Positions 1,003 through 58,730 are shown, counted from the stretch's first letter. The stretch: DNA of 64,000 bases from Candidatus Micrarchaeia archaeon (GCA_038874215.1 JAVZCV010000002.1:6664-70663); one strand, 5' to 3'. The notes: a model not told the origin generated them from the letters alone. Made by a program: numbers and translations.

Positions 1003-1015
1003 GAAAACCAACGAA

Positions 1016-1027
1016 AAGTTTATATAG
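1016..1027 (+). promoter_or_regulatory. Putative TATA box (aagtttatatag) for flaB2, about 55 nt upstream of the ATG. A ggaggga RBS lies at 1071..1077.
   Basis: An A/T-rich 8-mer is followed by a purine-rich SD-like sequence. Confidence 0.3.
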
Positions 1028-1081
1028 TGCGTAATGTTATTCCATTAGGAAAGCAATAAGAAAAAGGGAAGGAGGGAGAAC

Positions 1082-1675: not shown

Positions 1676-1685
1676 ACAGTCAGCC

Positions 1686-1702
1686 TTTTATTCTCCTTTT
1701 TT
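1686..1702 (+). terminator. Oligo-T tract (ccttttattctcctttttttaat) downstream of flaB2. It may act as a partial archaeal terminator.
   Basis: A T7 run sits within a pyrimidine-rich stretch 10-25 nt after the stop. Confidence 0.3.
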
Positions 1703-1723
1703 TAATCTATCTTAGGTAATCCC

Positions 1724-3002: not shown

Positions 3003-3049
3003 ACGACATGCCTCTAAATATTTAAATAGAAAATAACCTATTAAGATGC

Positions 3050-3490
3050 ATGGGTCTGAGCACGGTAGCAACATTCGCACTTTTTGCACTCGCCTTAATC
3101 TCTATCGTACTTGTCTCCTACGCCATAATCAACGAATCTGCTAAGACAACCGTTGAAGCGATACGGGAGGAGCACAATCTTTTTAGGCTACGGCAGGCAA
3201 CAAGCATAAAAATAAATAACATAAGCGTTAGCGGTATTTGCACAAACTATAATCTCACCATATCCGCTACGAATATGGGCAGCATAGCGCTTGACAGGGC
3301 TAAGATGAACATACTTGATAACGGTGTTCTTATAAACAACACTATGAGGGGAGCGTGGGCACCAGGAAGTGATATATATCTCAACTACACAGAGATGAGT
3401 ACTATGGCAAGCAACCACACAATAAAAATAGTCACAGAAAATGGCGTTTCGGCAATCGGAAAGTATAACCTAACCGATTGCGAGATATAG
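3050..3490 (+). CDS. flaF: FlaF/FlaG-family archaellum stator-like protein (FlaF by position)
   Basis: A single N-terminal TM helix (LFALALISIVLVSYAI) is followed by an N-glycosylation-rich beta-rich domain of about 15 kDa. The gene order fits euryarchaeal flaF-flaG, and the gene overlaps its neighbour. Confidence 0.5.
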   Translation: MGLSTVATFALFALALISIVLVSYAIINESAKTTVEAIREEHNLFRLRQATSIKINNISVSGICTNYNLTISATNMGSIALDRAKMNILDNGVLINNTMRGAWAPGSDIYLNYTEMSTMASNHTIKIVTENGVSAIGKYNLTDCEI

Positions 3491-3963
3491 GTGAAAATTT
3501 GGGGTTTGACACGTCCTTCACGCATGCCATGTTTTTCATAGCGTCAATAGTTGTCGCAATCGCGGTTATATCTGTTCTGTCAACATCTATAAACACTATT
3601 AACAATAGCATAACAGTTCGTACCAACACTTTGGCTGCCCAGATAAGGACTGACATAACCATAATAAACGATCCCTGCTTTGTGAACCGTTCTATTTTTG
3701 TCAAGAATACTGGTAAAACAATATTGAACGCAAAGCTTGTAGACATATACGTTGATGGGAACTACACCCAGTATGATGCAGTAAGCATTCTGCGGAGTCC
3801 TACTGGTGTATGGGAGCCCTACAACGAAAGCAATGGATGGCGCCCGCAAGAGGTCGTGAATTTCTCTTTTTCGTATCCATTGCCTGCTGGAACGCATACG
3901 CTGTTCGTGAGAACGGAAAATGGCGTATACGATAAAATGCTATATACGAACGAGACATGCTAG
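3478..3963 (+). CDS. flaG: FlaF/FlaG-family archaellum protein (FlaG by position)
   Basis: An N-terminal TM helix (FFIASIVVAIAVISVL) precedes a beta-rich domain. The gene overlaps the flaF-like gene by 13 nt. Confidence 0.5.
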   Translation: MRDIGENLGFDTSFTHAMFFIASIVVAIAVISVLSTSINTINNSITVRTNTLAAQIRTDITIINDPCFVNRSIFVKNTGKTILNAKLVDIYVDGNYTQYDAVSILRSPTGVWEPYNESNGWRPQEVVNFSFSYPLPAGTHTLFVRTENGVYDKMLYTNETC

Positions 3964-4008
3964 ATGCGCACACCAACATTAAAAAACAACTAAAAGAAAC
4001 AATATACC

Positions 4009-4446
4009 ATGAGAGCACAGGTTTCCTTTGAATACATTTCGCTTTTCACGCTCCTACTTATTCCACTCGCAGTCGCTTTCCTCTATTCTTATGCCGCTGT
4101 TTTCCAAGCAACATCCGCTTACAAAATAGAAACAAGCCTTGATAAGCTTGCCCAAAATGCAGAAGAACTGTATGTGCAGGGGCCAGGCGCCAAATCCATA
4201 GTAACAATAGACCTGCCTAGCGGCATAAATGCCCATGGTTCATTTATAGGGAATTCTTCGGGCGGACCGGGTCGCTACATTATGCTTAATTTCTCGGGTT
4301 CAAATGCCGTGAGAATTACCCGCGCAACCGTCCAAGGATACTGGCCAAATACTACGGGTGGCTATGTTCGACCAGGCATACTGCAGATGAACCTAACCGT
4401 TGATAATAACAACATTGTTATTATGAGACCGTTGAGGAGTGGTTAA
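4009..4446 (+). CDS. Small class-III-signal-peptide (prepilin-like) protein, function unknown
   Basis: The N-terminus is MRA|QVSFEYISLFTLLLIPLAVAFL: a short basic leader, Q at +1, E at +5 and a hydrophobic helix. This is the type IV pilin / class III signal pattern. It is first of three consecutive such genes. Confidence 0.5.
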   Translation: MRAQVSFEYISLFTLLLIPLAVAFLYSYAAVFQATSAYKIETSLDKLAQNAEELYVQGPGAKSIVTIDLPSGINAHGSFIGNSSGGPGRYIMLNFSGSNAVRITRATVQGYWPNTTGGYVRPGILQMNLTVDNNNIVIMRPLRSG

Positions 4447-4827
4447 ATGCGGAGAGGACAGGTTGGTACCGAATACATAGCCGCATTTACTCTTTGGGTG
4501 ATGGTGTGCGTAATAATAAGCTACACCCTCTCTTCGTATTCCCTTAGCTTAAAGGAAAGTAGGGATACGAATGCCCGCAACACGATTCTTGGGCATTTTT
4601 TTTCTCTTGCCGATGATGCAACAGAACCCTCAACAAAAATCTCTGGCATTTTTTTAGAAGACTACAACATAACCTTCTTTGGTAATATTGGCAGCCTCTC
4701 TTCACGAAATAAGACCACACTCGGCTACACAACGGCAAATTTTACGTATTCTGACACAATAGGGCGTGGCGATACTTTCCTAATCAAAAATGTCAACGGC
4801 ACATTTCTCCTAATAAAAGAAGAATGA
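4447..4827 (+). CDS. Small class-III-signal-peptide (prepilin-like) protein
   Basis: The N-terminus is MRRG|QVGTEYIAAFTLWVMVCVII. The start lies 1 nt after the previous stop. Confidence 0.5.
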   Translation: MRRGQVGTEYIAAFTLWVMVCVIISYTLSSYSLSLKESRDTNARNTILGHFFSLADDATEPSTKISGIFLEDYNITFFGNIGSLSSRNKTTLGYTTANFTYSDTIGRGDTFLIKNVNGTFLLIKEE

Positions 4828-4834
4828 TGGTGTT

Positions 4835-5326
4835 ATGAAACGAGCGCAGATTGCCACTCTTGACATGCTGCTTGCGATTACGGTACTTCTACTCATCGTT
4901 TTTTCCTTCATCATGTTTCTTATTGTTGAGATGCATGAGAAAGATAAAAAAAGCCATGCAGATTCCGAAAGAATCCTTTCAGCATTGGTTGGAAGCTCTG
5001 GCAAACCGTCAAACTGGACGAGCACCCACTTCATAATCCCGGGGCTGAAATGCGGGCAAGGCGTCGTTTGCGCAAATAAAATCAAAGAGCTCAATAATTC
5101 ATGCGGTTCCTCATCGCAATCCGGCTATGTTTCTGTTAAAAAAAGCCTCGGCATACCCACACAATACTACCTGATAGGATACTATGCCAGCAATTCAGAA
5201 AGATGCCTGTGTGGTTGCGATCTTTCAGAAAGAAGAAATACTGCATTGGAAGTTTCAAAATCAAGCCTCCTCGTTTCATTGGACAATAATATAACACGTC
5301 TCTCAATCTATTTATGGAACAGATGA
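4835..5326 (+). CDS. Small class-III-signal-peptide (prepilin-like) protein
   Basis: The N-terminus is MKRA|QIATLDMLLAITVLLLIVF. A Cys-rich, N-x-S/T-rich C-domain follows. Its stop abuts the flaJ stop on the opposite strand. Confidence 0.5.
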   Translation: MKRAQIATLDMLLAITVLLLIVFSFIMFLIVEMHEKDKKSHADSERILSALVGSSGKPSNWTSTHFIIPGLKCGQGVVCANKIKELNNSCGSSSQSGYVSVKKSLGIPTQYYLIGYYASNSERCLCGCDLSERRNTALEVSKSSLLVSLDNNITRLSIYLWNR

Positions 5327-7000: not shown

Positions 7001-7002
7001 CT

Positions 7003-10278: not shown

Positions 10279-10313
10279 GCAATATGCTTTAATATCATAT
10301 TCTATATTCTTTT

Positions 10314-11009: not shown

Positions 11010-11133
11010 TCGCTGCAAAATCAGCGAAACATTTATAAATAGCCTAATAGAAATAAAAACTGCCACGTGTGGGAGCAAGGCGACGAATTATGGCAATAAG
11101 CATCCTACTCGTAGGTATATAGGAGGTGCAGCA

Positions 11134-11724: not shown

Positions 11725-11747
11725 TAAAATTTTAAGAGGTGCTACGC

Positions 11748-28959: not shown

Positions 28960-28992
28960 GCGTTTTTTATTTTTCACATCATATTTATAGGC

Positions 28993-48297: not shown

Positions 48298-49404
48298 ATG
48301 AAGATAGCCGCAATCGGCCATTGCCTGCTTGCGCGGAGGCAATACGGGATATTTAACGAAATGCGCGAGCACGAAATTGAGCTTTTCGTCCCAAAAGCGT
48401 GGCCTGGCGTCCTTGAAAGGCCGGTAATAGCAGGAAAAGTCCATAGGATGAGGCTTCTTAACCATGGCAACACCTACAATTACATCATGCCCGGCATTAT
48501 GCCAGCCCTCGCAGCTTCAAAGCCTGATTTAGTATACACAAACGCTGAGCCATGGAGCAACATGTGCTTCTATGCACAACTCTGCTCAAAAATGCTGAAA
48601 ATACCGCATGTTTTTTTCACATGGGAAAATACAAGCTGGCCCACAAGAGGGTTTCAGAAGAGAAAAGAATGCTTCGTGGTTTCATGCGCTGCGGGTGCGG
48701 TGGCAGGAAACAAGGATGCAGAGAACAGGCTTAAGATCCTTAGGCCTGACCTCCCAGTCAAGAGAATGCCAAATGGCGGAATAGACACGAAACTTTTCAG
48801 GCATTCAAAGAAAAGCCTAAGACACGAGCTGGGGCTTGAAGATAAGAAGGTTGTTCTATTTGTAGGAAGGTTTGTGAAGGAAAAGGGCATTTGGTTTATC
48901 ATTGATAGCATTGAACGCGTAAGGCAGGAAATAAAGGATGCCCATTTTGTTTTCGCCGGTAAGGGTCCCGAGAAGCGGGCAATGATGCTCCGCATACTGA
49001 ATTCACCATTCAGGGACGCATGCACGCTTCTCAGCTGGAGGCCATACGAGGAACTACCACTTGTATACAACAGCGCAGACATTTTCGTGTACCCAAGCTA
49101 TTCCACACCGCACTGGAGAGAGCAGTTCGGCTTTGCAATACTTGAAGCGATGGCATGCGGTCTCCCCGTTATAACAACGAGATGCGGCGCTATAGAAGAA
49201 GTTGCGGGCGATGCCGCAGAGTATGTGCCAGAAAGGGATTCAAACGCCCTTGCAAAAAAAATAGTGGAGTTGCTCTGCGAAGAAGGAAAAAGAAAATCAC
49301 TTGCCGCAAAGGGCCGAGAAAGAGCACAAGTTTACGATTTAAAGAGAGTTGCACGCATGCACAAAGAATTCTTTGAGGAAATAGCAGGCAGGGGTCATAT
49401 ATAG
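48298..49404 (+). CDS. Glycosyltransferase family 4
   Basis: C-terminal GT-B signature ...EQFGFAILEAMACGLPVITT.... Confidence 0.85.
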   Translation: MKIAAIGHCLLARRQYGIFNEMREHEIELFVPKAWPGVLERPVIAGKVHRMRLLNHGNTYNYIMPGIMPALAASKPDLVYTNAEPWSNMCFYAQLCSKMLKIPHVFFTWENTSWPTRGFQKRKECFVVSCAAGAVAGNKDAENRLKILRPDLPVKRMPNGGIDTKLFRHSKKSLRHELGLEDKKVVLFVGRFVKEKGIWFIIDSIERVRQEIKDAHFVFAGKGPEKRAMMLRILNSPFRDACTLLSWRPYEELPLVYNSADIFVYPSYSTPHWREQFGFAILEAMACGLPVITTRCGAIEEVAGDAAEYVPERDSNALAKKIVELLCEEGKRKSLAAKGRERAQVYDLKRVARMHKEFFEEIAGRGHI

Positions 49405-50366
49405 AACCAAAAATTTTCCCTGTAATATTCATACATCTTCCTCAGCCCTTCTTCAAAACATGTTTCTGGTCTCCAGCCCAGCTCTTTCAATCTTCCTATA
49501 TCGGCTATGTAATCGCCTGTTTTGTCTCGCCCGTAGTCCTCGGGCCATTCTGCGTGCTTAATCCTCCCCTTTCCAACAACTTTGACGACTGATTTCGCCA
49601 TGTCTATAAAGGCGGTTCCCTTTCCCGAGCCTATGTTGAAAGGACCTTGATTCCCGCACGCAACAACCATACCCTCTACTACATCATCCACATACACATA
49701 GTCTCTCAACTGCTTTCCATCCCCAAAAACCTCTATTGTCTTATCCTCCATCGCAAGCCTCATGAACCATCCTACTATACCATATTTCCAGTGCTTTATC
49801 TGCTGGCGAGGTCCATACGGGTTTGCAATCCTTACTATCGTAGTTTTCATGCCATATGCACGCGCATATATCATGTAATACATCTCCCCGACCAGTTTCT
49901 CTATCCCGTATAGCGTTATCGGTTTTTTTGGTGCATCCTCATTTGTAAGGCCGTTCGTAATACCATAGACCATTCTTGAGCTTGTGAAGAGAATAGCTGC
50001 ACTTTCCGCATGCTTTCTGCACGCTTCAAGTATGTTTATATGCCCCTTAAGATTGACGTCAATATCATAAAGCGCCATTTTTAGCGCATCAACGTAGTTC
50101 ACCTGCGCCGCCAGACTGAAAACATAATCCTTTTCCTTCACTGCTTCCTCAACCCTGCGCATATCCCTAATGTCTGCTTTAATGAATTCTATATCCCCCT
50201 CCATGCCTTCAAGGTTCTTCATGTTTCCGCCATAGCCCGGTAGCATCCCATCTAAAATTGTGACTTTTGCACCAAGCGAAACAAGCCTCCTTGCAAGATT
50301 GCTACCTATAAAACCCGCACCCCCTGTTATCAGAACTTCGCTATCCTCGTAATCTTTGGGTTCCAT
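49395..50366 (-). CDS. NAD-dependent sugar-nucleotide epimerase/dehydratase (SDR extended family)
   Basis: Rossmann motif VLITGGAGFIGSNL, catalytic YxxxK (YGIEKLVGEMYY...). Confidence 0.85.
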   Translation of the reverse strand: MEPKDYEDSEVLITGGAGFIGSNLARRLVSLGAKVTILDGMLPGYGGNMKNLEGMEGDIEFIKADIRDMRRVEEAVKEKDYVFSLAAQVNYVDALKMALYDIDVNLKGHINILEACRKHAESAAILFTSSRMVYGITNGLTNEDAPKKPITLYGIEKLVGEMYYMIYARAYGMKTTIVRIANPYGPRQQIKHWKYGIVGWFMRLAMEDKTIEVFGDGKQLRDYVYVDDVVEGMVVACGNQGPFNIGSGKGTAFIDMAKSVVKVVGKGRIKHAEWPEDYGRDKTGDYIADIGRLKELGWRPETCFEEGLRKMYEYYRENFWFYI

Positions 50367-51525
50367 GATAAAACCTCACCTCGCACTTATTAAATATTGG
50401 CTATTCTATCTAATTATGCGCGTTGTCTATTCTATCGGCGTTGAGCTTTCCAGCGGAGCTCTCGCCGAGGTTGGGCTCAACGCAATACATGCAATAGAAA
50501 AGAAGGGAATGCTAAAAAGTGCATTTTTTTTGCATGGGGCGAAGGACGCCGATAGCGGTCTGGTACGGGAAAACTATGCGCGCATAAATCTGCCCGCATT
50601 CGTTCTTCATCGCTACTGGGCAAAAGACAACCTTTTTGACATTTCAGTCGCGATGAAAATGCCAAGCTGTGAAATATTCCATGGGTGGAACGGTTTTTCG
50701 CTATTTTCAATCATGGCTGCAAAAAGGAAGAATGCAAAAACGATCGTAGAGCGTGCATCAACCCACATACTAACACAAAAGAAAATACTTGAAACAGAAC
50801 GCATGCTTTTTGGTTTAAGCGGAAGCGGCCTAAACCCCATCTCTGTTAGGAAATCACTGCTTGAGTACAAGCATGCGCACTATGTTTTTGTGCCTTCCGA
50901 CCTTGCCTATAACTCTTTCGTTGAAAACGGTTTTGAAAGAGAACGGCTCATAAAAATACCGCTTGGTGTTGACTTGGGGGTGTTCTCTCCTGCGAAAAAA
51001 GAAAGCGACGTTTTCACTGTTCTCTTTGTTGGAAGCATCATACTGCGTAAGGGCTTGCAGTATCTCCTGCAGGCATACAGCAAGATGGACAAAAAAGGTA
51101 AAGAGCTTGTCGTTATCGGCTCCGTTTCCCCCGAGATGAGGCGCATATTCAACCTTTACATGCAAAAGATGAAATTTAAGCACATAGAATGGGCAGACAA
51201 CCTTTTGCCATACTACAGAAATGCGAGCGTTTTCGTTCTCCCGACTCTTGAGGAGGGGTTTTCGCTTGCACTCCTAAAGGCGATGGCGTGCGGCATTCCC
51301 GTCATAACAACAGAGAATTCAGGCTTACCAATCCGCGATGGGGTTGAAGGTTTCATATGTCCTTTCCGCGACCCAAAATCAATACGCGAGAAACTACTGT
51401 ATCTTTTTGAAAACGAGAGCGAACGAAAAAGGATGGGCAATATGGCGAGAAGGAAGGCAGAGGATTTCTCGTGGGATAAATACGGCGAAAACCTCATTAA
51501 GGTATATCGTTCCTTGTGTGAATGA
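50356..51525 (+). CDS. Glycosyltransferase family 4
   Basis: ...EEGFSLALLKAMACGIPVITT.... Confidence 0.85.
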   Translation: MGSMIKPHLALIKYWLFYLIMRVVYSIGVELSSGALAEVGLNAIHAIEKKGMLKSAFFLHGAKDADSGLVRENYARINLPAFVLHRYWAKDNLFDISVAMKMPSCEIFHGWNGFSLFSIMAAKRKNAKTIVERASTHILTQKKILETERMLFGLSGSGLNPISVRKSLLEYKHAHYVFVPSDLAYNSFVENGFERERLIKIPLGVDLGVFSPAKKESDVFTVLFVGSIILRKGLQYLLQAYSKMDKKGKELVVIGSVSPEMRRIFNLYMQKMKFKHIEWADNLLPYYRNASVFVLPTLEEGFSLALLKAMACGIPVITTENSGLPIRDGVEGFICPFRDPKSIREKLLYLFENESERKRMGNMARRKAEDFSWDKYGENLIKVYRSLCE

Positions 51526-52178
51526 ATGTTGGTGCGTTGCCGATGAAATACTATGAATACTATTGGACTGCAATGAAACCGCATTGCGAGATTACGCACG
51601 CAAAGAAGGATGCGTTCACCCTTCTTAAAGGCAAAAAAGTACTTGATGTCGGCTGTGGGGACGGAGAACACTACGGGAAGGCTCTCGCAAAGGAATGCCA
51701 GCTTTATGGGATAGATATCTCAAACGAGGCCGTGTCTATTGCAAGAAAAAACGGCATGGATGCCACTGTTGGGGAGGCAGACAACCTTCCTTTCGGAGAT
51801 GGGGAATTTGACGCGGTCTTGTTTATTGACGTTCTTGAACACCTTTTCAATCCAGAAGGTGCCCTCCACGAGGCAAACCGCGTTTTGAAAAACAACGGTT
51901 TTATTATAGTATCCCTGCCGAATGCCGCTTACATCCGCGAGAGGCTTTCTTTCCTATTTGGGGATTTCAACCCGCGAGGCTCGCCCCACACTTCTTTTGA
52001 TTCGCCTTGGGCTGACCCCCACATACGCTTCTTCACCAAGAAAACGGTTATGGCACTTCTCCAAAAAACAGGCTTCAAAGTCCGCGTTTTTATAGGGGAG
52101 GCAGGCATACCAATACTATCGCATTTCTTCCCTTCTCTCTTTGCCTCGGATTTCCTCATAATCGCAGAAAAGCAGTGA
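51522..52178 (+). CDS. Class I SAM-dependent methyltransferase
   Basis: Motif I VLDVGCGDGEH, post-I acidic DIS, motif II FDAVLFIDVLEH. Confidence 0.8.
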   Translation: MNVGALPMKYYEYYWTAMKPHCEITHAKKDAFTLLKGKKVLDVGCGDGEHYGKALAKECQLYGIDISNEAVSIARKNGMDATVGEADNLPFGDGEFDAVLFIDVLEHLFNPEGALHEANRVLKNNGFIIVSLPNAAYIRERLSFLFGDFNPRGSPHTSFDSPWADPHIRFFTKKTVMALLQKTGFKVRVFIGEAGIPILSHFFPSLFASDFLIIAEKQ

Positions 52179-52182
52179 TTCC

Positions 52183-53064
52183 ATGGCCACTGGCAAAAAA
52201 CCAGAATTGAGCGTCGTCGTCCCAACATATAATCGGGCAGAAAAACTAAAAGAGACGCTGAATTCCCTTTTGCGCCAGAGTATCCCGTGCGAGATAATCA
52301 TCGTAGATGACGGTTCGCGCGATGATACGCCCCTGATTGCTAAAAATTTTGGCTTTAAATACATAAAGTGCGAGCACAGGGGACCAGCAGCATCACGCAA
52401 CATCGGAATAAAGAATGCGAACGCAGACATAGTTGCCTTTATAGATGACGACTGCATAGCACCCGAAAGATGGGCTGAAACCTTGCTTGAAGGCTACAAG
52501 CGTCATCCTCATGTTGCAGGAGCTGGAGGCTACATGCTACCCCCCCAAGATGCGAAGGGCATTTTTGCAGATTACGAACGCCATAACACAAAGAAATACG
52601 GTGCTTTTTCAGGAGAGAGCGTATACAAGGAAGACGGACCCGTAGGCTCCACATGCAACATGTCTTACAGAAAAAGCGTGCTTTTAGAAGCAGGCGGATT
52701 TGATGAGCGCTTCGTATCTGCAGCTGGCGAGGATATAGACCTTCGCGACCGCGTCTATGAACTGGGATACTCTCTGCTTTTCATTCCTGTTGCAGTAATC
52801 CACAATGCCGACTATTCCTTTCGCGGTTTTTTAAGGAGATCCTTGATGCGTGCCGATGGGGTTTTTGTTTACGAGCAGAAGCGTGGGCGAAGGTTCTCCA
52901 TTAAAACAAATACATTCAATGCGCTTTCTGCCTTCCTGCGCTTTCTGCTCTTCCTTATCCTTATTGACTCAATTTCTGCATTAGAAAGCCTTGAGCTTTT
53001 TATAGTGAATGCGGGCATCATACGGAGGTGTCTCTCTGATCGTCTCTCTTTTTGCACCCCTTGA
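52183..53064 (+). CDS. Glycosyltransferase family 2
   Basis: LSVVVPTYNRAEKL...IIVDDGSRDDT...FIDDDC is a GT-A DxD arrangement. Confidence 0.85.
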   Translation: MATGKKPELSVVVPTYNRAEKLKETLNSLLRQSIPCEIIIVDDGSRDDTPLIAKNFGFKYIKCEHRGPAASRNIGIKNANADIVAFIDDDCIAPERWAETLLEGYKRHPHVAGAGGYMLPPQDAKGIFADYERHNTKKYGAFSGESVYKEDGPVGSTCNMSYRKSVLLEAGGFDERFVSAAGEDIDLRDRVYELGYSLLFIPVAVIHNADYSFRGFLRRSLMRADGVFVYEQKRGRRFSIKTNTFNALSAFLRFLLFLILIDSISALESLELFIVNAGIIRRCLSDRLSFCTP

Positions 53065-54106
53065 AAAGCACTGGGCAAGCATGCACGTATTTACGCAAAA
53101 CCTTGCAAAAAATCTGCCCTCAGGAGTGCATGTTTCAAGGCCATTCATCCCATACATAAGGCTCCCGCTCGCTTCATTAGAGCGCAGAAGCATATCCTTT
53201 TTCAAGCATATCGTCTATCCTAACGTTGCGCATATTTCACAGGGAGCAATAAACCACATCACAGACCACAGCTACTCTTTTTTAATAAAAAAAATTGACC
53301 CAAAAAGAACGCTTGTGACATGCCACGACCTTATCCCCCTTAATTTTTTTGAAGAAAGCATAAGGGATGCTTTTCTGCGCGATATATCGCCAATTAGGGA
53401 TGCAGCAGCTATCGTAGCCGATTCTAAAAAAACAAAGGCCGACATAGTTGAAAAGCTTGGAATTGAAGAGAAAAAAATACGGGTTGTGCCGCTGGGTGTT
53501 GATCATGAACGCTTTTTTCCGTTTGATGAAAAAAGAAAGAGATGCACAAGAGCCAAATTCGGCTTCGGCTCAGAATTCGTAGTCCTGCATGTTGGCAGCA
53601 CGCTTCCTTATAAGAACATAGAGGGCATAATACATGCGCTCTCGTTGATAGAGGATGAAATACTCTTTGTAAAGGTCGGTTGGGATTTCACTGCTGAGCA
53701 AAAAAAATTCATTGATAAAAAAGGCATCCGCAAGAAAATATCTTATATCGGAAAACTTAAAGATGCCCAGATGCCCGAGATATACAATGCATGCGACCTT
53801 CTCGTTTTCCCATCCTTCAATGAGGGCTTTGGTCTTCCCATAATAGAAGCAATGGCATGCGGCCTTCCCGTCCTCACATCAAATAGCGGGGGTTGCGAAG
53901 AAACGGCAGGAGATGCAGGGATACTAGTGGAACCATCCGATGCAGGAGCGATAGCCGACGCAATAATGCAGGTTATGCAATCAAAGGATTTTGCATGCGA
54001 AATTTCCAAAAAAGGATTAAAGAGGGCAGCGGAATTCTCATGGAAGAGAACAGCAGAAGAATACATGCACATTTATACCCACATCATAAAGTCATTAAAG
54101 AGGTAG
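53009..54106 (+). CDS. Glycosyltransferase family 4 (the start may instead be Met at 53081)
   Basis: ...NEGFGLPIIEAMACGLPVLTS.... Confidence 0.8.
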   Translation: MRASYGGVSLIVSLFAPLEKHWASMHVFTQNLAKNLPSGVHVSRPFIPYIRLPLASLERRSISFFKHIVYPNVAHISQGAINHITDHSYSFLIKKIDPKRTLVTCHDLIPLNFFEESIRDAFLRDISPIRDAAAIVADSKKTKADIVEKLGIEEKKIRVVPLGVDHERFFPFDEKRKRCTRAKFGFGSEFVVLHVGSTLPYKNIEGIIHALSLIEDEILFVKVGWDFTAEQKKFIDKKGIRKKISYIGKLKDAQMPEIYNACDLLVFPSFNEGFGLPIIEAMACGLPVLTSNSGGCEETAGDAGILVEPSDAGAIADAIMQVMQSKDFACEISKKGLKRAAEFSWKRTAEEYMHIYTHIIKSLKR

Positions 54107-54110
54107 GCTA

Positions 54111-55532
54111 ATGCATGTCCTTTTCATATACCCCGACATAATATTTAAAGAGAACTGGAATGGGCAGTACTACTCGGGCATAGCTTACATATCATCCGTT
54201 CTTAAAGAAAACGGCCATAAAACCTCGCTCCTTCACATAACACAGCCAATCAGGCGGAAAAATCTCATAGAGCTTGTAAAACGAGAGGTCAAGGGCGATA
54301 CGATAATAGGCATTTCTTCTACAACAAACATGTTCCCATTCGCTGCGAGATGGGCAAAATGGATAAAAGAAGAGTTACCAGAAACCACCATACTCTGCGG
54401 AGGAGTCCACCCAACCTTATCGCCAAAAAGCGTCATAAAAACCAGCAACATAGATGCCATTGTTGTTGGCGAGGGTGAATACCCCACACTAGAAATATGC
54501 GATGCGCTTGAAAAAGGAGCATGGATAAACGGGATACCAAACGTTTGGGTTCGCGATGGGCAAAGAATATACGCAAACCCAACACGCCCGCCTATAAAAC
54601 TTGATTCTCTTCCACTGCCCGATAGAAGCATCTTCAAGATGAGGGAATTGTTCTGGGAAAGACAAGGAATAGGAAATCTCATAGTTTCAAGGGGGTGCCC
54701 ATATAACTGCGCATACTGTTGCAACCATGCGCTAAGAAAGTTCATGGGTTCGGGTGTGCGAATGAGAAGCGTTGAGAAGACCATAGAAGAGGCAAACCAA
54801 CTTATAACAGAATATCCCTTCATAAAAAAGCTGCACTTTGATGATGACATATTCGGCTTATCAATTGGCTGGCTTCGTGAATTTGCAGAGAAATTCCCAG
54901 ATGAAGTGGGTGTGCCATTCAGCTGCAACATACGTGCAAACCTGCTTACAGATGAGCGCATCGCACTTCTGAAAAAATCAGGCTGCTACCGTTTGCAGAT
55001 TGGAGTAGAGAGCGGGAATGATTTCATACGCAATGAGATAATGAACCGCAACATGAGCAGGGAAACGATCGTACGCGCATTTAAAAAAGCGAAGGAGGCG
55101 GGCTTTGAGACATATGCGTTCAACATGATCGGCCTGCCGCATGAGAATGCGGCTGCAGTTCTTGATACCGTTAAGTTAAATGCCGAGATAGAACCAGATA
55201 TGTTCCAATGCTCAATATTCTATCCCTACCCCTCAACACGCCTTTACTCTCTCTGCCGCAAGGAAAATATGATAAGGCGCAGGCAGATGCATAGCTATTT
55301 CCGAGGTAGCATACTCAACCTGCAAGGCATGTCAGATGCACAGCTTGAAGTTTTCAACAGATACTTTGAACACCTCGTTGCACTATATGGAGATGCGAAA
55401 GCAATCCCGAAGGTGCATAAGCTGCTTGATACCATGCTCTGTTCACGAGCGTTTCCTATTTTCGCAGGCAACCTCATCTCCTGTTACCTCTGGATGAAAC
55501 AACTTCATCGTAAATTCTTTCAATCTCAATAG
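54111..55532 (+). CDS. B12-binding-domain radical SAM enzyme (class B radical SAM)
   Basis: N-terminal cobalamin-binding Rossmann-like region. The radical-SAM motif is ...SRGCPYNCAYCCN.... 473 aa. Confidence 0.8.
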   Translation: MHVLFIYPDIIFKENWNGQYYSGIAYISSVLKENGHKTSLLHITQPIRRKNLIELVKREVKGDTIIGISSTTNMFPFAARWAKWIKEELPETTILCGGVHPTLSPKSVIKTSNIDAIVVGEGEYPTLEICDALEKGAWINGIPNVWVRDGQRIYANPTRPPIKLDSLPLPDRSIFKMRELFWERQGIGNLIVSRGCPYNCAYCCNHALRKFMGSGVRMRSVEKTIEEANQLITEYPFIKKLHFDDDIFGLSIGWLREFAEKFPDEVGVPFSCNIRANLLTDERIALLKKSGCYRLQIGVESGNDFIRNEIMNRNMSRETIVRAFKKAKEAGFETYAFNMIGLPHENAAAVLDTVKLNAEIEPDMFQCSIFYPYPSTRLYSLCRKENMIRRRQMHSYFRGSILNLQGMSDAQLEVFNRYFEHLVALYGDAKAIPKVHKLLDTMLCSRAFPIFAGNLISCYLWMKQLHRKFFQSQ

Positions 55533-56634
55533 CATGCTGGCTTATTCCAAAGCGCTTTGAGAATTCAAATGCCCGCCTGCCCATATCCATCGCTTTTTTC
55601 CTGTCAGCAAGCAGCATCACGATTTTATCCGCAAGTTCCTCCTCATCCTTAGGTTTTACAAGAAATCCTGTCTTACCATCTTCAACAAGTTCGCTGAACG
55701 CACCAACATCGCTTGCAACAACGGGACGTGCTGTTGAAAATGCCTCAAGTATCACAAGCCCGAACGTCTCGGGCCATATTGAAGGGGCAACAACAACCCT
55801 GCTTCTCTCAAAAAGCTTCTCCTTTTGCCTATCGCTTATCTTCCCGAGCATTTTTATGCCATCAGCCCCAGTTTCTGTAGCCCAAATACCTTCACCCGCT
55901 ATCACAAGTTTTGCATCGCTAACCCTATCGCGTACTTTTGAAAATGCTCTCTCTAGATAGCCTATGCCTTTAAGAGGATTTAATCTGCCCACATACGTGA
56001 CTATTTTTTCAACACCCATGTACTTCTCGCCGATAGGCTCTATTCCATGTGGCAGATGAATTACCTTCTCGCTCTTTATCCCGTTCCTTATTAGAAGGTT
56101 CTTGACGAATAAACTTGGCGCTATGTACTTGTCTATAAACCTATCATACGGTTTGGTTGCGAATATCGCTTCCCGAAGTGCAAACAAGCTTCTGCCTGTT
56201 AAGGTGGTTGAGCAAAGAGAGCATATCCTAACCCCCCCCTTCATCTTCGGGCACTGTTCCCCGTCCGTAGTGTAGTATGTCAAAAGCGGGCAGAACATCC
56301 AGTGGTCATGCACCGTTAAAACTACGGGTGCCTTCCTTGAAACCCTACCAAGCGCAGCTAAAGAGATCCCCCAAACACCATGCACATGCACAACGTCAGC
56401 ATCAATATCCAGCTTTATATCGGGGTTAAAAACATCCCTTCGCATTATCTGATCATGGCTCCTCCCAATTCCAACGACCTTGATTCCCCCTTCAATCTCC
56501 CTATCTTCCGTATCGCAGGCGAATATCGTTACCTCGTGTCTCTTTGCCAACTCTTTTGAGAGCGACAGGCAGTAGCGCTCGCTTCCTCCAATGCCTTCAC
56601 CGCTAAACTTGTTCGTCAACTGAGCTATCCGCAT
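55474..56634 (-). CDS. Glycosyltransferase family 4
   Basis: ...ETFGLVILEAFSTARPVVAS... GT-B C-terminal domain. 386 aa. Confidence 0.85.
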   Translation of the reverse strand: MRIAQLTNKFSGEGIGGSERYCLSLSKELAKRHEVTIFACDTEDREIEGGIKVVGIGRSHDQIMRRDVFNPDIKLDIDADVVHVHGVWGISLAALGRVSRKAPVVLTVHDHWMFCPLLTYYTTDGEQCPKMKGGVRICSLCSTTLTGRSLFALREAIFATKPYDRFIDKYIAPSLFVKNLLIRNGIKSEKVIHLPHGIEPIGEKYMGVEKIVTYVGRLNPLKGIGYLERAFSKVRDRVSDAKLVIAGEGIWATETGADGIKMLGKISDRQKEKLFERSRVVVAPSIWPETFGLVILEAFSTARPVVASDVGAFSELVEDGKTGFLVKPKDEEELADKIVMLLADRKKAMDMGRRAFEFSKRFGISQHAIEIERIYDEVVSSRGNRR

Positions 56635-56748: not shown

Positions 56749-57618
56749 TTGGAGTCTATGGAACATGAGTTAATAAGGATTTCACTTGCTGTGGCGGCGT
56801 GTGCGCTCGGGGCATACTACGATATTAAAAACAACAGGAATGTCCCAAACTGGGTTACATACTCCTTCGTTGCTATCGGCGTTTTTATAAACGCCATCCC
56901 CTTTGATCTTTCCTTTATCCTTCCTGTTTTTGCTGTTTCTGCCCTTATTTTCATTGTCGGCTATTTGTTCTACAGGCTTGGGCAGATAGGGGGAGCAGAC
57001 GTTCTTTTATTTACCGGCGTGTCCCTCGCACTTCCGTATCCCCCCTCGCACCTCTCTTCTACCCTTTTTGAATATCCCTTCATACTTCCTGTCTTCGTTG
57101 TTTCTGGTGTTCTGTTCAGCATTGCAATGCTCATAGCATACGTGCCGCGTATTTTTGCAGATGTGCGTGCGCGAAAAGTAAAAACCAGCCCTTATGGCGT
57201 CTTACTCTCGCTCATCATGCTCCTTGCATACACCGCAGTCATCTATATGCTGGCCCAGATACTGCCATTGCGACCCCTCCAAATTCTCATTTTGGTTATC
57301 GTGGTGTTTTCTGCGGTTTTCTTCATGCTTTTCAGGGAGCACATAACCGAAAATTATGTAATAGAGTACGTCTCCCTTGAAGAAGTTGATGAGGAGGATG
57401 TGCTTGCGCTTGAAAAAATTGACAGCAAAACAATATCCCAATACAGCCTTAAAAGACTTTTGACTGCTTCTGAAATAGAGAGGCTCAAAAGAACCCCAGT
57501 CGCAAAGATGAGACTTCCCGTGTGTAAAAACATGCCCATGTTTGCCCCATACCTACTTCTATCCCTCTTAATAAACCTGGTTATTGACCCATCCCTTCTG
57601 TTCGCCCCTGCATTTTAA
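56749..57618 (+). CDS. flaK: Class III signal peptidase (prepilin/preflagellin peptidase FlaK/PibD, A24 family)
   Basis: The first catalytic-Asp block is ...ALGAYYDIKNNRNVPNW... and the second is ...LGQIGGADVLLF... (GxGDxK-like). It is a polytopic membrane protein with an archaeal C-terminal extension. A TATA-like catataaa and a ggag RBS lie upstream. Confidence 0.75.
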   Translation: MESMEHELIRISLAVAACALGAYYDIKNNRNVPNWVTYSFVAIGVFINAIPFDLSFILPVFAVSALIFIVGYLFYRLGQIGGADVLLFTGVSLALPYPPSHLSSTLFEYPFILPVFVVSGVLFSIAMLIAYVPRIFADVRARKVKTSPYGVLLSLIMLLAYTAVIYMLAQILPLRPLQILILVIVVFSAVFFMLFREHITENYVIEYVSLEEVDEEDVLALEKIDSKTISQYSLKRLLTASEIERLKRTPVAKMRLPVCKNMPMFAPYLLLSLLINLVIDPSLLFAPAF

Positions 57619-57638: not shown

Positions 57639-58730
57639 GTGTGGTATTCTATCGGTATGGCTGTTGATATAATAACCCACTCAATTGCGCAGATTGATGT
57701 ACCACTGCTCACTACCATATCGTTTTTGATAAACCACAAAATTTACGGCAATGTTTTCCTCTCATTTTTATTTTTATTTGCACTCATATCCTCAAAGAAG
57801 AAGGCATCAACCTTAATTTCAGTTTTTCTGACGGTTGTGCTTTTCATACTGCTAAAAGATTTCTATGGCATAGGAAGGCCGTGCTTTGCGATTCCATCAA
57901 AAGTCGCCTGTCCCACTGATTATTCATTTCCAAGCGGCCACGTCTCAATAGGCGCATGTTTAACCGCATCTGTGGTAGGAACTGTCCTGTTCATTCCATA
58001 TCTCTTAATGCTGGTCCTCATTTCATTCAGCAGGATGTACCTGGGCGTTCACATGCTTAACGACATCGTTGGGGGCATAGTTCTTGGCGTATCCGTCTTT
58101 TTTGTAGTGGATAAGCTATTCACAAGGCTCATCAAAAAAGAGCAGAATATTGCATACGAGAAAGACGTGCTCGGAAGACGGCTCCTCCATATAGGATTCG
58201 GCACGATAGTTATCCTATTCATAATGCTCAGCAGCTATCTGCCTTACGGGTTCTACATGCTTGAATTCATGCTCGCAATGTTTTTTTTGATTGGCTTTAT
58301 CATTCTTGATGCAAAGCTGAAAGGAATTCAGCTACCGATTATTGACTACCTTATAGACAAGCTTGAACGGCCGCATGCCTTACCCGCGGAGGGGGCATTC
58401 TGGTACGGTCTGGGCGTGTTGCTTGCATTCTCATATGTTGGCGAGCCAATTAAAACAGCAGCCGTTATATCATTACTCGCTTTTGGGGATGGGCTATCCA
58501 CACTCATAGGCAGGAAAGGAAGAATACCACTACCATACAACAAGAGAAAAACTCTTGAAGGCACGGCTGCCTTTCTAATAGGTGGTTCCTTATCATATTT
58601 TTTCGTAGGCCCTGCAGGTATTCTCCTCTCATTGCTATGCGCGATTGTGGAGACTTTTTACTTTGGCATTGACGATAACTTCCTTGTGCCTCTTACTTGT
58701 GTCATCGTGCTGCGATTGGGGATCATTTAA
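57639..58730 (+). CDS. Fusion membrane protein: PAP2-family phosphatase N-domain plus dolichol-kinase/CTP-transferase-like C-domain
   Basis: PAP2 motifs KDFYGIGRP, PSGH and SRMYLGVHMLND are present. The C-terminal ...LIGRKGRIPLPYNKRKTLEGTAAFLIGG... matches the CTP_transf_1/dolichol kinase signature. Confidence 0.6.
   Translation: MWYSIGMAVDIITHSIAQIDVPLLTTISFLINHKIYGNVFLSFLFLFALISSKKKASTLISVFLTVVLFILLKDFYGIGRPCFAIPSKVACPTDYSFPSGHVSIGACLTASVVGTVLFIPYLLMLVLISFSRMYLGVHMLNDIVGGIVLGVSVFFVVDKLFTRLIKKEQNIAYEKDVLGRRLLHIGFGTIVILFIMLSSYLPYGFYMLEFMLAMFFLIGFIILDAKLKGIQLPIIDYLIDKLERPHALPAEGAFWYGLGVLLAFSYVGEPIKTAAVISLLAFGDGLSTLIGRKGRIPLPYNKRKTLEGTAAFLIGGSLSYFFVGPAGILLSLLCAIVETFYFGIDDNFLVPLTCVIVLRLGII

What the first reader, a model, noticed from the sequence alone, without database searches (positions are those of the whole stretch)
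48298..56634. Glycosylation island: four GT4, one GT2, an SDR epimerase, a SAM-methyltransferase and a B12-binding radical SAM enzyme
Seven consecutive genes encode sugar-modifying enzymes in mixed orientation. A class B (cobalamin-dependent) radical SAM gene is embedded among them. Such enzymes typically perform methylation at unactivated carbons or ring rearrangements, so a C-methylated or otherwise unusual sugar in the glycan is plausible. The many sequons in the archaellins and pilin-like proteins suggest an N-glycan assembly (agl-like) cluster. The adjacent PAP2/dolichol-kinase fusion and FlaK-like peptidase support that reading. No AglB oligosaccharyltransferase is in the window.
Basis: partly seen in the sequence, partly recalled or inferred. 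Interest (0 to 1): 0.5.

Follow-up and report, generated by a model that had tools for sequence, protein, structure and literature searches.

The report
Archaeal glycan cluster with radical-SAM enzyme
An uncultured DPANN archaeon (Micrarchaeia) carries an ordinary eight-gene cluster for building a cell-surface sugar chain, plus one uncharacterised B12-type radical SAM enzyme whose relatives also sit in bacterial polysaccharide loci and which is worth testing.

Summary
There are eight adjacent genes, not seven (48298-56634; + - + + + + + -): four GT4-type and one GT2 glycosyltransferase, an epimerase-like SDR, a class I SAM methyltransferase and a B12-domain radical SAM (rSAM) enzyme. All Pfam matches are well above cut-off.

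The window comes from a 117.6-kb contig of a 'Candidatus Micrarchaeia archaeon' MAG.

- It is a glycan-assembly cluster.
- Surface proteins in the window carry 2.5 times more N-X-S/T sequons than their composition predicts. Other proteins carry the expected number. The organism therefore very likely N-glycosylates.
- The window holds no AglB, flippase or initiating transferase, so N-glycan versus another surface glycan stays open.

New findings:
- The core (SDR, GT4b, GT2, GT4c, GT4a, GT4d) is collinear at 25-47% identity with two metagenomic loci. Those loci have a Wzx flippase and no rSAM.
- The closest relatives of the rSAM (41-48% identity, bacterial where named) all lie in polysaccharide loci. 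So the rSAM is an accessory tailoring gene.
- Its chemistry is unresolved. It joins no curated subfamily. Its best structural match is AprD4, a sugar diol-dehydratase that does not bind cobalamin, closely followed by B12-dependent methylases.

This is a modest lead, not a surprise.

The parts
48298..49404 (+). GT4a: soluble GT-B glycosyltransferase (Pfam Glycos_transf_1 / Glyco_trans_1_4). It follows MscS after a 23-nt gap.
   Evidence: Pfam 1.3e-36. NCBI names it 'glycosyltransferase family 4 protein', MEM3399436. No TM segment. 27% identical to the GT4 downstream of the GT4c-like gene in L171/L172.
49395..50366 (-). Extended SDR, nucleotide-sugar epimerase-like. Its 3' end overlaps GT4a by 10 nt (convergent).
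   Evidence: Pfam Epimerase 3.1e-49. Best solved relatives are UDP-glucose 4-epimerases (4zrm, 160 bits). It has GxxGxxG, TSSRMVYG and YGIEK, and lacks the D-E pair of 4,6-dehydratases (motif knowledge from memory). dTDP-glucose dehydratase model 167 bits against a cut-off of 365. 39-40% identical to the SDR of L171/L172.
50356..51525 (+). GT4b: GT-B glycosyltransferase and first gene of a five-gene same-strand run. The real start is probably the ATG at 50416 (MRVVYSIG...).
   Evidence: Pfam Glyco_trans_1_4 1.3e-26. 37-40% identical over 364-368 residues to the gene after the SDR in L171/L172, which fits a protein of about 369 aa. The start reassignment is inference.
51522..52178 (+). Class I SAM-dependent methyltransferase (Methyltransf_11/23), a probable sugar O- or N-methyltransferase.
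   Evidence: Pfam 4.4e-22. No NCBIfam model reaches its cut-off (best DVU_1556 family, 70.6 bits against 155). NCBI calls a 211-aa version, MEM3399439. A methyltransferase occupies the same position in L171/L172 but is of another type (TehB-like).
52183..53064 (+). GT2: GT-A glycosyltransferase with one weak C-terminal hydrophobic segment (about residue 243).
   Evidence: Pfam Glycos_transf_2 4.7e-34. Scores: EpsD 138, MftF 133, AglG 78 and AglJ 32 bits, all far below their cut-offs. 44-47% identical to the GT2 directly upstream of the GT4c-like gene in L171/L172.
53009..54106 (+). GT4c: GT-B glycosyltransferase immediately upstream of the rSAM gene (4-nt gap).
   Evidence: Pfam 6.5e-35. Best homologues are 36-40% identical and lie in collinear loci without an rSAM. 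The GT4 next to rSAM homologues in bacterial loci matches GT4c better than the other three paralogues (118-132 bits against 40-70).
54111..55532 (+). Class-B-type radical SAM enzyme: N-terminal B12-binding-like Rossmann domain, radical SAM barrel and helical C-terminal domain. It is an accessory tailoring gene of uncharacterised subfamily.
55474..56634 (-). GT4d: GT-B glycosyltransferase, convergent with the rSAM gene (59-nt 3' overlap).
   Evidence: Pfam Glycos_transf_1 2e-35 and Glyco_transf_4 1.2e-20. 25-28% identical to a GT4 in L171/L172.
56749..57618 (+). Context gene: A24 aspartic peptidase (FlaK/PibD type), about 6 TM segments. It processes class III signal peptides of archaellins and pilins.
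   Evidence: Pfam Peptidase_A24 3.5e-11. TM prediction. The function is inferred from the family.
57639..58730 (+). Context gene: PAP2 polyprenyl-diphosphate-phosphatase-like domain (residues ~11-158) fused to a multi-TM C-terminal half that may be dolichol-kinase-like.
   Evidence: Pfam PAP2 2.2e-12. SepP undecaprenyl-diphosphatase model 57.7 bits against a cut-off of 250. The C-terminal half has only three homologues, two of them named 'dolichol kinase' by JGI. It has no Pfam, NCBIfam or PDB hit, and its model has pLDDT 47.
400..5326 (+). Candidate acceptor proteins, not part of the cluster: two archaellins (400-1002, 1082-1675) and five small proteins with N-terminal hydrophobic anchors (3050-5326). 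All are rich in sequons. A third archaellin lies at 11739-12347.
   Evidence: Pfam Arch_flagellin 6.5e-35 for 400-1002. The other two archaellins were not scanned; they are assigned from the shared N-terminal sequence [29 protein letters not shown]. Sequon counts are 3-7 per 126-202 aa. Their role as acceptors is inference.

Best explanation
The eight genes build and decorate an oligosaccharide on a polyprenyl (dolichyl) phosphate carrier at the cytoplasmic face of the membrane. The host is a Micrarchaeia (DPANN) archaeon.

Proposed steps:
1. The epimerase-like SDR supplies an epimeric nucleotide sugar.
2. Four soluble retaining GT4 enzymes and one inverting GT2 add sugars one after another.
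3. The class I methyltransferase O- or N-methylates one residue.
4. The B12-domain radical SAM enzyme is an accessory tailoring enzyme. It uses a 5'-deoxyadenosyl radical to modify an unactivated sugar carbon. C-methylation through methylcobalamin is the single most likely outcome.
5. The finished lipid-linked glycan is flipped and transferred by proteins encoded outside the window. The most likely route is AglB-dependent N-glycosylation of the sequon-rich archaellins, pilin-like proteins and S-layer protein.
6. The adjacent PAP2 protein would recycle the carrier.

**Shown:** the domain identities, the operon-like arrangement, the absence of TM segments, the conserved catalytic motifs, the sequon enrichment, the collinear relatives of the core, and the glycan-locus context of the rSAM clade.

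**Inferred:** the lipid carrier, the order of steps, the acceptor (protein N-glycan), cobalamin use, and the chemistry of the rSAM.

My sub-probabilities:
- surface-glycan assembly: about 0.9
- rSAM acts on the glycan or its precursor: about 0.7
- product is the N-glycan: about 0.5
- the rSAM step is C-methylation: about 0.35
For: - **Domains.** All eight proteins match their Pfam families far above cut-off.
- **Operon and location.** GT4b-MT-GT2-GT4c-rSAM lie on one strand with gaps of 4 nt or overlaps. None of the eight has a membrane anchor except for one weak segment in GT2.
- **SDR.** It is closest to solved UDP-glucose 4-epimerases and has the S/Y/K motif.
- **Conserved core.** It is collinear with L171/L172: SDR 39-40%, GT4b 37-40%, GT2 44-47%, GT4c 36-40% identity. 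Those loci add a Wzx flippase, which implies a lipid-linked intermediate that gets flipped.
- **rSAM clade, closest members.** The six closest homologues examined (41-48% identity) form four different locus architectures. All lie among Wzy, Wzx/MurJ, GNVR, Bac_transf, GT4, GT2, PMT_2 and SDR genes.
- **rSAM clade, wider.** Among 133 genes within 5 kb of 21 rSAM homologues scoring at least 250 bits, there are 11 Glycos_transf_1, 11 Glycos_transf_2, 7 epimerase SDRs, 6 methyltransferases and 5 Polysacc_synt flippases. The usual share of GTs in a genome is about 1-2% of genes (established knowledge).
- **N-glycosylation.** Twelve proteins with a single N-terminal hydrophobic segment carry 50 sequons against 20.2 expected. 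The other 58 proteins carry 57 against 56.1.
- **Neighbouring genes.** An A24 prepilin/prearchaellin peptidase and a PAP2 phosphatase lie next door.
- **Precedent in the phylum.** A cultured Micrarchaeon has a glycosylated S-layer protein and expresses N-glycosylation genes (bioRxiv 10.1101/2021.04.28.441871).
- **B12 domain.** The N-terminal domain of the rSAM aligns with the cobalamin domains of OxsB, TokK, TsrM and CysS and with the BchE, PhpK and MgmA models. The AprD4 model and structure align by sequence only to the core.
Against: - The window holds no AglB, no flippase and no initiating phosphoglycosyl or Dol-P transferase. The rest of the contig could not be reached.
- No protein reaches any Agl model cut-off: Agl16 41-51 bits against 575, AglG 78 against 440, AglJ 32 against 325.
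- Every informative relative of the rSAM sits in a Wzx/Wzy-type polysaccharide locus, not a protein-glycosylation locus.
- The collinear relatives of the core carry GT-C-like membrane proteins (DUF6311, DUF2079, GT87) and no recognisable AglB.
- For the chemistry, the best PDB and fold match is AprD4, which dehydrates a sugar diol and does not bind cobalamin (PMC12931638). The best HMM is HpnJ, a putative ring-contraction enzyme (PMC13459092).
- A separate methyltransferase is already in the operon.
- The closest relatives of GT4c lack an adjacent rSAM, so there is no obligate GT-rSAM pair.
Confidence: 0.55

Rival explanations
1. The cluster makes a surface polysaccharide or lipoglycan that is not attached to protein by AglB. 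This would be an EPS-, capsule- or O-antigen-like polymer, or a glycan extended outside the cell by GT-C enzymes. The rSAM tailors its repeat unit.
For: All six closest rSAM homologues lie in loci with Wzy, Wzx, GNVR, Bac_transf or Capsule_synth genes. The collinear core relatives L171/L172 carry Wzx plus DUF6311, DUF2079, GT87 and a 571-aa GT-C-like protein, and no AglB motif. No Agl model cut-off is reached.
Against: The window has no Wzy, Wzx, chain-length regulator or GT-C protein. Sequon enrichment shows that the organism N-glycosylates, so it needs such a GT set somewhere. Archaeal GT clusters of this size without a polymerase are typically agl clusters (established knowledge). The cluster sits beside the archaellin/pilin peptidase.
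Confidence: 0.3
2. This rival concerns the chemistry only. The rSAM is a cobalamin-independent, AprD4-like sugar 1,2-diol dehydratase. Together with a reductase, possibly the neighbouring SDR, it produces a deoxy sugar in the glycan rather than a C-methyl sugar.
Confidence: 0.2
3. The cluster makes a membrane glycolipid head group. The rSAM performs an HpnJ/Cds-like ring contraction that turns a hexose glycoside into a cyclitol (calditol-like) ether.
For: HpnJ is the best-scoring curated model (140 bits). HpnJ and Cds are rSAM enzymes proposed to contract a lipid-linked sugar ring (PMC13459092). Glycolipid synthases are GT4 enzymes (weak hits to the MGlcDAG and Dgs models).
Against: The HpnJ score is a quarter of its cut-off (577.6). 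No Sulfolobales or hopanoid producers appear among the closest homologues. Five GTs are far more than a head group needs. Relatives of the clade sit in Wzx/Wzy loci.
Confidence: 0.07
4. The rSAM is a passenger unrelated to the glycan. It would modify a protein (as MgmA and Mmp10 do), a lipid chain or a cofactor, and merely landed among the GT genes.
For: The closest collinear relatives of the core lack it, so it is dispensable for the core pathway. MgmA, a protein glutamine C-methylase, is the second-best structural match.
Against: It lies in the same-strand run 4 nt after GT4c. Its clade recurs in glycan loci in unrelated bacteria and DPANN archaea. Its codon usage and GC content match its neighbours.
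Confidence: 0.08

Closest known systems
Archaeal N-glycosylation (agl) gene clusters, e.g. Haloferax volcanii aglJ-aglB with the methyltransferase AglP, and Sulfolobus Agl16 (GT4)
   Same: A run of soluble GT2 and GT4 enzymes, a nucleotide-sugar-modifying SDR and a SAM methyltransferase. Sequon-rich archaellins and surface proteins are present in the same genome.
   Different: No AglB, flippase (AglR) or initiating enzyme (AglH, AglJ, AglK) lies in the cluster or the window. No protein reaches an Agl model cut-off. To my knowledge, and within the open-access library searched, no described agl pathway contains a radical SAM enzyme.
Bacterial Wzx/Wzy-dependent polysaccharide loci carrying several B12-rSAM and SPASM-rSAM genes (uncharacterised; Nitrospirota and Syntrophobacteraceae MAGs, L001/L004/L018/L168)
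   Same: They contain the closest homologues of the rSAM (43-48% identity), flanked by a GT2 and a GT4c-like GT4.
   Different: Those loci also have Wzy, Wzx, PMT_2, GH26, two SPASM rSAMs and two further B12-rSAM paralogues. The window has a single rSAM and none of the others.
GenK / GenD1 (gentamicin) cobalamin-dependent radical SAM C-methyltransferases
   Same: They are class-B rSAM enzymes that methylate unactivated carbons of glycoside sugars, and so are the precedent for the proposed chemistry (PMC4039129, PMC4340712, listed; PMC12931638).
   Different: They belong to secondary-metabolite pathways in actinomycetes. The resemblance is functional analogy only.
AprD4 (apramycin) radical SAM 1,2-diol dehydratase, PDB 6fd2
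   Same: It is the best structural and PDB-sequence match. It has the same three-domain layout and a sugar substrate.
   Different: Identity is 19-20%. The family model scores 83 bits against a cut-off of 500. AprD4 does not bind cobalamin, and its cluster motif has different spacing (PMC12931638).
HpnJ / calditol synthase Cds (ring contraction of lipid-linked hexose)
   Same: HpnJ is the best curated HMM hit. Both are rSAM enzymes acting on a glycoside made by a neighbouring GT (PMC13459092).
   Different: The score is 140 bits against a cut-off of 578. The taxonomic and genomic contexts differ, with no hopanoid or GDGT genes.

Membership tests
Archaeal N-glycosylation (agl) cluster | Oligosaccharyltransferase AglB (STT3, WWDxG motif) in or near the cluster | tested here: not met
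   No ORF of 500 aa or more is STT3-like. No WWD[YWFN]G motif occurs in six frames of the 64-kb window. The rest of the genome could not be reached.
Archaeal N-glycosylation (agl) cluster | Initiating Dol-P-dependent transferase (AglH, AglJ or AglK type) and a flippase (AglR/Wzx type) | tested here: not met
   AglJ model 31.6 bits against 325. AglG model 78 against 440. No Polysacc_synt, MurJ or PF00953 protein was found among the window ORFs scanned. Two multi-TM ORFs (25955-26779, 27448-27999) have no Pfam hit.
Archaeal N-glycosylation (agl) cluster | Secreted or surface proteins of the organism carry selected N-X-S/T sequons | tested here: met
   50 observed against 20.2 expected on 12 N-terminally anchored proteins. 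57 against 56.1 on the other 58 proteins.
Archaeal N-glycosylation (agl) cluster | Glycan actually attached to Asn of surface proteins | not testable with these tools
   This needs glycoproteomics of the organism or an enrichment culture.
Class B (cobalamin-dependent) radical SAM enzymes | Radical SAM core with a CxxxCxxC [4Fe-4S] motif | tested here: met
   PF04055 84.6 bits against a cut-off of 29.5. C196/C200/C203 are invariant in 30 homologues.
Class B (cobalamin-dependent) radical SAM enzymes | N-terminal B12-binding Rossmann domain | tested here: met
Class B (cobalamin-dependent) radical SAM enzymes | Cobalamin is actually bound and used | not testable with these tools
   AprD4 shows that a Rossmann-like N-domain within this sequence neighbourhood need not bind cobalamin (PMC12931638).
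Any curated class-B rSAM subfamily (HpnJ, BchE, PhpK, MgmA/TIGR04014, HpnR, BzaD, ladderane, AprD4, TIGR04295) | Score at or above the NCBIfam/TIGRFAM trusted cut-off | tested here: not met
   Scores against cut-offs: HpnJ 140/578, BchE 124/481, PhpK 112/600, TIGR04072 99/360, AprD4 83/500, MgmA 76/360, HpnR 65/650, TIGR04295 57/400.
CAZy GT4 (four genes) and GT2 (one gene) | GT-B Glycos_transf_1 C-domain with a Glyco_transf_4-type N-domain; GT-A Glycos_transf_2 domain | tested here: met
   Pfam matches. The N-domain is above its cut-off only for GT4c and GT4d. Formal CAZy/dbCAN assignment was not available.
Wzx/Wzy-dependent polysaccharide locus | Wzx flippase, Wzy polymerase and a chain-length regulator in the locus | tested here: not met
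   None is present in the window. They are present in the loci of the rSAM homologues, and Wzx is present in L171/L172.
Dolichol kinase (C-terminal half of the PAP2 fusion, 58119-58730) | Match to a polyprenol/dolichol kinase (CTP_transf_1 superfamily) model or structure | tested here: inconclusive
   No Pfam, NCBIfam or PDB hit even at E = 5-10. The AF2 model has pLDDT 47. Two of its three homologues are named 'dolichol kinase' by JGI. The conserved GDG..T..GR.G, KT.EG and DDN motifs resemble that family, from memory.
Anti-phage defence system (because of the PF20706 'GT4-conflict' hits) | Match to PADLOC defence models | tested here: not met
   No PADLOC hit for any GT, the SDR or the rSAM. 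There is only a generic methyltransferase-domain hit. The PF20706 scores (22-34 bits) are far below the Glycos_transf_1 scores.

The most novel reading that the evidence does not exclude
The rSAM belongs to an undescribed clade of class-B radical SAM enzymes. Its job would be radical C-H functionalisation (C-methylation, deoxygenation or ring contraction) of sugars in lipid-linked cell-surface glycans. The clade is shared between Wzx/Wzy polysaccharide loci of anaerobic bacteria and glycan clusters of DPANN archaea. In this Micrarchaeon it was recruited into a conserved glycan core. There it would place an unusual sugar (C-branched, deoxy or carbocyclic) on the N-glycan of archaellins and the S-layer, using cobalamin that a genome-reduced symbiont would have to scavenge from its host or community.
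Probability: 0.3. Interest if true: 0.65.

Novelty: new variant of a known kind. Interest (0 to 1): 0.4.

Why it matters
- **Enzymology.** Class-B radical SAM enzymes acting on sugars are known from antibiotic pathways (GenK, GenD1). AprD4 is a related enzyme that works without cobalamin. I found no described case in archaeal N-glycosylation or in Wzx/Wzy surface-polysaccharide pathways. If this clade tailors lipid-linked glycans, it adds a new type of modification step to cell-surface glycobiology.
- **Size of the target.** The clade is large and untouched. At least 120 sequence clusters share 38% identity or more with this protein.
- **DPANN biology.** It would show investment in an elaborate surface glycan that depends on a cofactor the cell probably cannot make. 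That bears on how these symbionts interact with and depend on hosts.
- **If the rSAM is an ordinary methylase.** The cluster is then simply one more archaeal glycosylation island.

Tried and rejected
1. **Reaching the rest of the 117.6-kb NCBI contig to look for aglB.** Exact-protein look-ups returned only short Logan fragments (SRR30574052) or nothing.
2. **Finding the genome in the GTDB set.** The metagenome scan had the same limit.
3. **An obligate 'GT4c-rSAM module'.** The GT4 next to bacterial rSAM homologues is GT4c-like. But GT4c has closer homologues (36-40% identity) in loci without any rSAM. I downgraded the idea to a weak association.
4. **Recent horizontal insertion of the rSAM.** GC content, GC3 and codon usage are indistinguishable from the neighbours. 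The closest named relatives are bacterial, and the best archaeal relatives in the GTDB scan score lower (286 bits against 435). The direction and age of any transfer are unresolved.
5. **Defence-system reading of the PF20706 hits.** Rejected.
6. **Dolichol-kinase identity of the PAP2 C-terminal half.** No HMM or PDB support and an unusable model. The afdb50 fold library was unavailable.
8. **Bacterial promoter and terminator scan.** Not applicable to an archaeon and not above shuffles.
9. **Literature.** Eight full-text searches found no paper on B12-rSAM enzymes in archaeal glycosylation or in Wzx/Wzy loci. The library is limited to open-access papers.

Full report
**Source of the window.** Exact-sequence look-ups place the window on a 117,623-bp contig of a metagenome-assembled 'Candidatus Micrarchaeia archaeon', a DPANN archaeon. 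SRP54 is MEM3399434, GT4a MEM3399436, the methyltransferase MEM3399439, GT2 MEM3399440, GT4c MEM3399441 and RpiA MEM3399446. The consecutive numbering fits eight annotated genes between MscS and the A24 peptidase. The surroundings are typically archaeal: eIF6, S19e, L31e, Rpr2, SRP54, a thermosome and an archaellum operon.

**Check of the observation.** Eight ORFs fill 48298-56634, with orientation + - + + + + + -. Pfam assigns them as follows:
- four Glycos_transf_1 / Glyco_trans_1_4 proteins (GT4-type GT-B)
- one Glycos_transf_2
- one extended SDR (Epimerase / GDP_Man_Dehyd)
- one Methyltransf_11 protein
- one protein with B12-binding plus Radical_SAM domains

E-values run from 1e-15 (the B12-binding domain) to 1e-49, all above the curated cut-offs. 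The finding's text says seven genes, while its title correctly lists eight enzymes.

GT4b-MT-GT2-GT4c-rSAM form a same-strand run with 4-nt gaps or overlaps, which suggests one transcription unit. The SDR and GT4d lie on the opposite strand and overlap their neighbours' 3' ends by 10 and 59 nt. None of the eight has a membrane anchor, apart from one weak hydrophobic segment in GT2. GC content and codon usage match the rest of the window.

**The individual enzymes.** No protein reaches a curated NCBIfam cut-off, so none can be named at equivalog level.
- *SDR.* It is closest to solved UDP-glucose 4-epimerases (4zrm, 160 bits). It has the Ser/Tyr/Lys signature (TSSRMVYG, YGIEK) and lacks the Asp-Glu pair of 4,6-dehydratases (motif knowledge from memory). 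'Epimerase' is therefore reasonable.
- *rSAM.* It has the CxxxCxxC motif (C196/200/203) and the GGVHPT and GEGE motifs, all conserved in 30 homologues. Its AlphaFold model is confident (pLDDT 92).
- *Sequence-level comparison.* The AprD4 structure and model align only to the core (residues ~156-427). The N-terminal domain aligns to genuine cobalamin domains.
- *Curated models.* The best are HpnJ (140 bits, cut-off 578), BchE (124) and PhpK (112).

The protein is thus a canonical class-B-type rSAM of an uncharacterised subfamily. Neither fold nor profile comparison separates methylase, dehydratase and ring-contraction chemistries. A recent review stresses that AprD4 sits in the B12-rSAM similarity network without binding cobalamin (PMC12931638).

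**Context of the rSAM clade.** Apart from a 100% copy from the same organism, the best database hits are only 38-48% identical. Where named, they are bacterial: Nitrospira, Syntrophobacteraceae, WOR-1, Actinobacteria, Anaerolineaceae, Dehalococcoidia and Myxococcales.

I examined six of the closest hits, which show four distinct locus architectures. All lie in polysaccharide loci:
- *P0004, P0006, P0017.* Wzy, B12-rSAM, SPASM-rSAM, Wzx, GT4, GT2, **rSAM**, GT4, SPASM-rSAM, PMT_2, GT2, GH26, B12-rSAM.
- *P0003.* Wzy, SDR, **rSAM**, MT, GT4, PMT_2-like, GT2, B12-rSAM, GT2, MT.
- *P0013.* Capsule_synth, Polysacc_synt-like, GT4 x2, **rSAM**, SDR, GT4 x2, SDR x2, Epimerase_2, Bac_transf.
- *P0016.* MurJ, GNVR, Wzy, **rSAM**, B12-rSAM, GT2.

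For 21 non-redundant loci with an rSAM homologue scoring at least 250 bits, I scanned the 133 genes within 5 kb against Pfam. They include 11 Glycos_transf_1, 11 Glycos_transf_2, 7 epimerase-type SDRs, 6 class I methyltransferases, 5 Polysacc_synt flippases and 14 further rSAMs (7 with a B12 domain, 6 with SPASM). That is about 17% GTs. The usual genomic share is roughly 1-2% (established knowledge).

More distant members occur in Woesearchaeota, Pacearchaeota, Aenigmatarchaeota, Bathyarchaeia and others, often again with GT, MT, SDR and SPASM genes.

**Context of the rest of the cluster.** The best homologues of GT4c (36-40% identity) lie in two low-GC contigs of unknown taxon, L171 and L172. 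These are collinear with the window's core: DUF6311, SDR, GT4(b-like), MT, Wzx, GT2, GT4(c-like), GT4(a-like), a 571-aa GT-C-like protein, DUF2079, GT4(d-like), GT4, GT87.

Identities to the window proteins:

| Window protein | Identity to L171/L172 counterpart |
|---|---|
| SDR | 39-40% |
| GT4b | 37-40% |
| GT2 | 44-47% |
| GT4c | 36-40% |
| GT4a | 27% |
| GT4d | 25-28% |

These loci have a flippase exactly where the window has none, and they have no rSAM. The window's cluster is therefore a conserved glycan-assembly core into which an rSAM tailoring gene has been recruited. The flippase in the relatives implies a lipid-linked intermediate.

The GT4 adjacent to bacterial rSAM homologues resembles GT4c more than the other three paralogues. 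Since GT4c has closer relatives without an rSAM, I treat a dedicated GT4c-rSAM pair as only weakly supported.

**N-glycan or something else?**

*For N-glycosylation.*
- Twelve window proteins with a single N-terminal hydrophobic segment carry 50 sequons against 20.2 expected from composition (2.26 per 100 aa). They include three archaellins, five pilin-like proteins of the archaellum operon and four others.
- The other 58 proteins carry 57 against 56.1 expected (0.34 per 100 aa).
- A cultured Micrarchaeon has a glycosylated S-layer protein and expresses N-glycosylation genes (bioRxiv 10.1101/2021.04.28.441871).
- The A24 prepilin/prearchaellin peptidase and a PAP2 phosphatase lie directly downstream.

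*Against treating this as settled.*
- The window has no AglB, no flippase and no initiating transferase.
- No Agl model cut-off is reached.
- The informative relatives are Wzx/Wzy or Wzx/GT-C loci.
- I could not reach the remaining 53 kb of the contig or the rest of the MAG.

I put the N-glycan reading at about 0.5 and a non-protein-linked surface glycan at about 0.3.

**The PAP2 'fusion'.** The N-terminal half is PAP2, with a weak match to the SepP undecaprenyl-diphosphatase model. The C-terminal multi-TM half has only three detectable homologues. They are stand-alone proteins of about 190 aa, and JGI names two of them 'dolichol kinase'. The half has no Pfam, NCBIfam or PDB match. Its model is unusable at pLDDT 47. 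The conserved GDG..T..GR.G, KT.EG and DDN motifs resemble polyprenol kinases, from memory. The verdict is inconclusive.

**Mechanism proposed.** The steps are given under the best explanation: the SDR supplies an epimeric nucleotide sugar, the GTs extend a dolichyl-phosphate-linked oligosaccharide, the methyltransferase and the rSAM decorate it, and export and transfer are encoded elsewhere.
- *Shown:* domains, arrangement, motifs, sequon bias and comparative context.
- *Inferred:* everything about substrates, order, the carrier, the acceptor and cobalamin use.

**Novelty and score.** As a gene cluster this is ordinary. The unusual element is a class-B-type rSAM inside a cell-surface glycan pathway. 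Eight full-text searches found no description of such an enzyme in archaeal glycosylation or in Wzx/Wzy loci. The known sugar-modifying precedents (GenK, GenD1, AprD4) come from aminoglycoside pathways. I class it as a new variant of a known kind, with interest 0.4. It is a concrete, testable enzymology lead in a large uncharacterised clade. It is not a surprise, and it does not answer a long-standing question.

Noticed in passing
window 400-12347: A complete-looking archaellum operon. It has three archaellins (400-1002, 1082-1675, 11739-12347) sharing the N-terminus [29 protein letters not shown], and five small pilin-like proteins (3050-5326). It also has ArlJ (T2SSF, 5327-7000) and ArlI (T2SSE, 7003-8640), and a KaiC/ArlH-like ORF that was not scanned (10314-11009). 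A motility apparatus in a DPANN MAG is worth noting.
   Followed up: partly
window 17191-18192 and 36801-38006: A polyprenyl synthetase (Pfam 1.1e-70) and a geranylgeranyl reductase (GGR_cat 1.3e-21). These are isoprenoid and lipid-carrier genes in a lineage usually described as unable to make its own lipids. They could be relevant to dolichol supply for the glycan cluster.
   Followed up: no
window 57639-58730: A PAP2 phosphatase fused to a multi-TM domain that exists elsewhere only as rare stand-alone proteins of about 190 aa (three homologues among 5.8 billion proteins). No profile library recognises this domain. Two of the homologues are labelled 'dolichol kinase' by JGI.
   Followed up: partly
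window 28474-30150: A long ORF (558 aa from a TTG start) with tRNA-intron endonuclease N-terminal and catalytic domains only in its middle and C-terminal parts. From memory, ARMAN/Micrarchaeota have an unusual multi-unit (epsilon2-type) splicing endonuclease, so this may be one.
   Followed up: no
L001, L004/L005, L018, L168 (bacterial loci): A conserved locus in Nitrospirota and Syntrophobacteraceae MAGs: Wzy, B12-rSAM, SPASM-rSAM, Wzx, GT4, GT2, B12-rSAM, GT4, SPASM-rSAM, PMT_2, GT2, GH26, B12-rSAM. Five radical SAM enzymes sit in one polysaccharide locus, and as far as I could find the locus is uncharacterised.
   Followed up: partly
L080 (1-10300), L045, L081, L065: Arrays of five to eight tandem B12-rSAM paralogues, sometimes with SPASM rSAMs and GT2s, in bacterial MAG contigs. 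Function unknown.
   Followed up: no
L171 811-2880, 10174-11889(-), 11927-13421; L172 equivalents: The collinear relatives of the window's core carry three large multi-TM proteins: DUF6311, a 571-aa protein with no Pfam hit, and DUF2079. They also carry a GT87. The N-terminal 'DEDSPTHVWYLWWF'-type loops look GT-C-like. These could be the missing extracellular transferases or ligases of this glycan system. None has a WWDxG motif.
   Followed up: partly
window 38300-39088: A second, small radical SAM protein (262 aa; Radical_SAM plus Fer4_12), activase-like and unrelated to the glycan cluster.
   Followed up: no
window 55474-55532 and 49395-49404: Convergent gene pairs overlap at their 3' ends: rSAM/GT4d by 59 nt and GT4a/SDR by 10 nt. 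The last ~30 residues of the rSAM model have low confidence (pLDDT 43-63), so the overlap lies in a poorly constrained tail.
   Followed up: no
window 1-64000: No tRNA gene (ARAGORN) and no Rfam family reaches its gathering score anywhere in the 64 kb.
   Followed up: no
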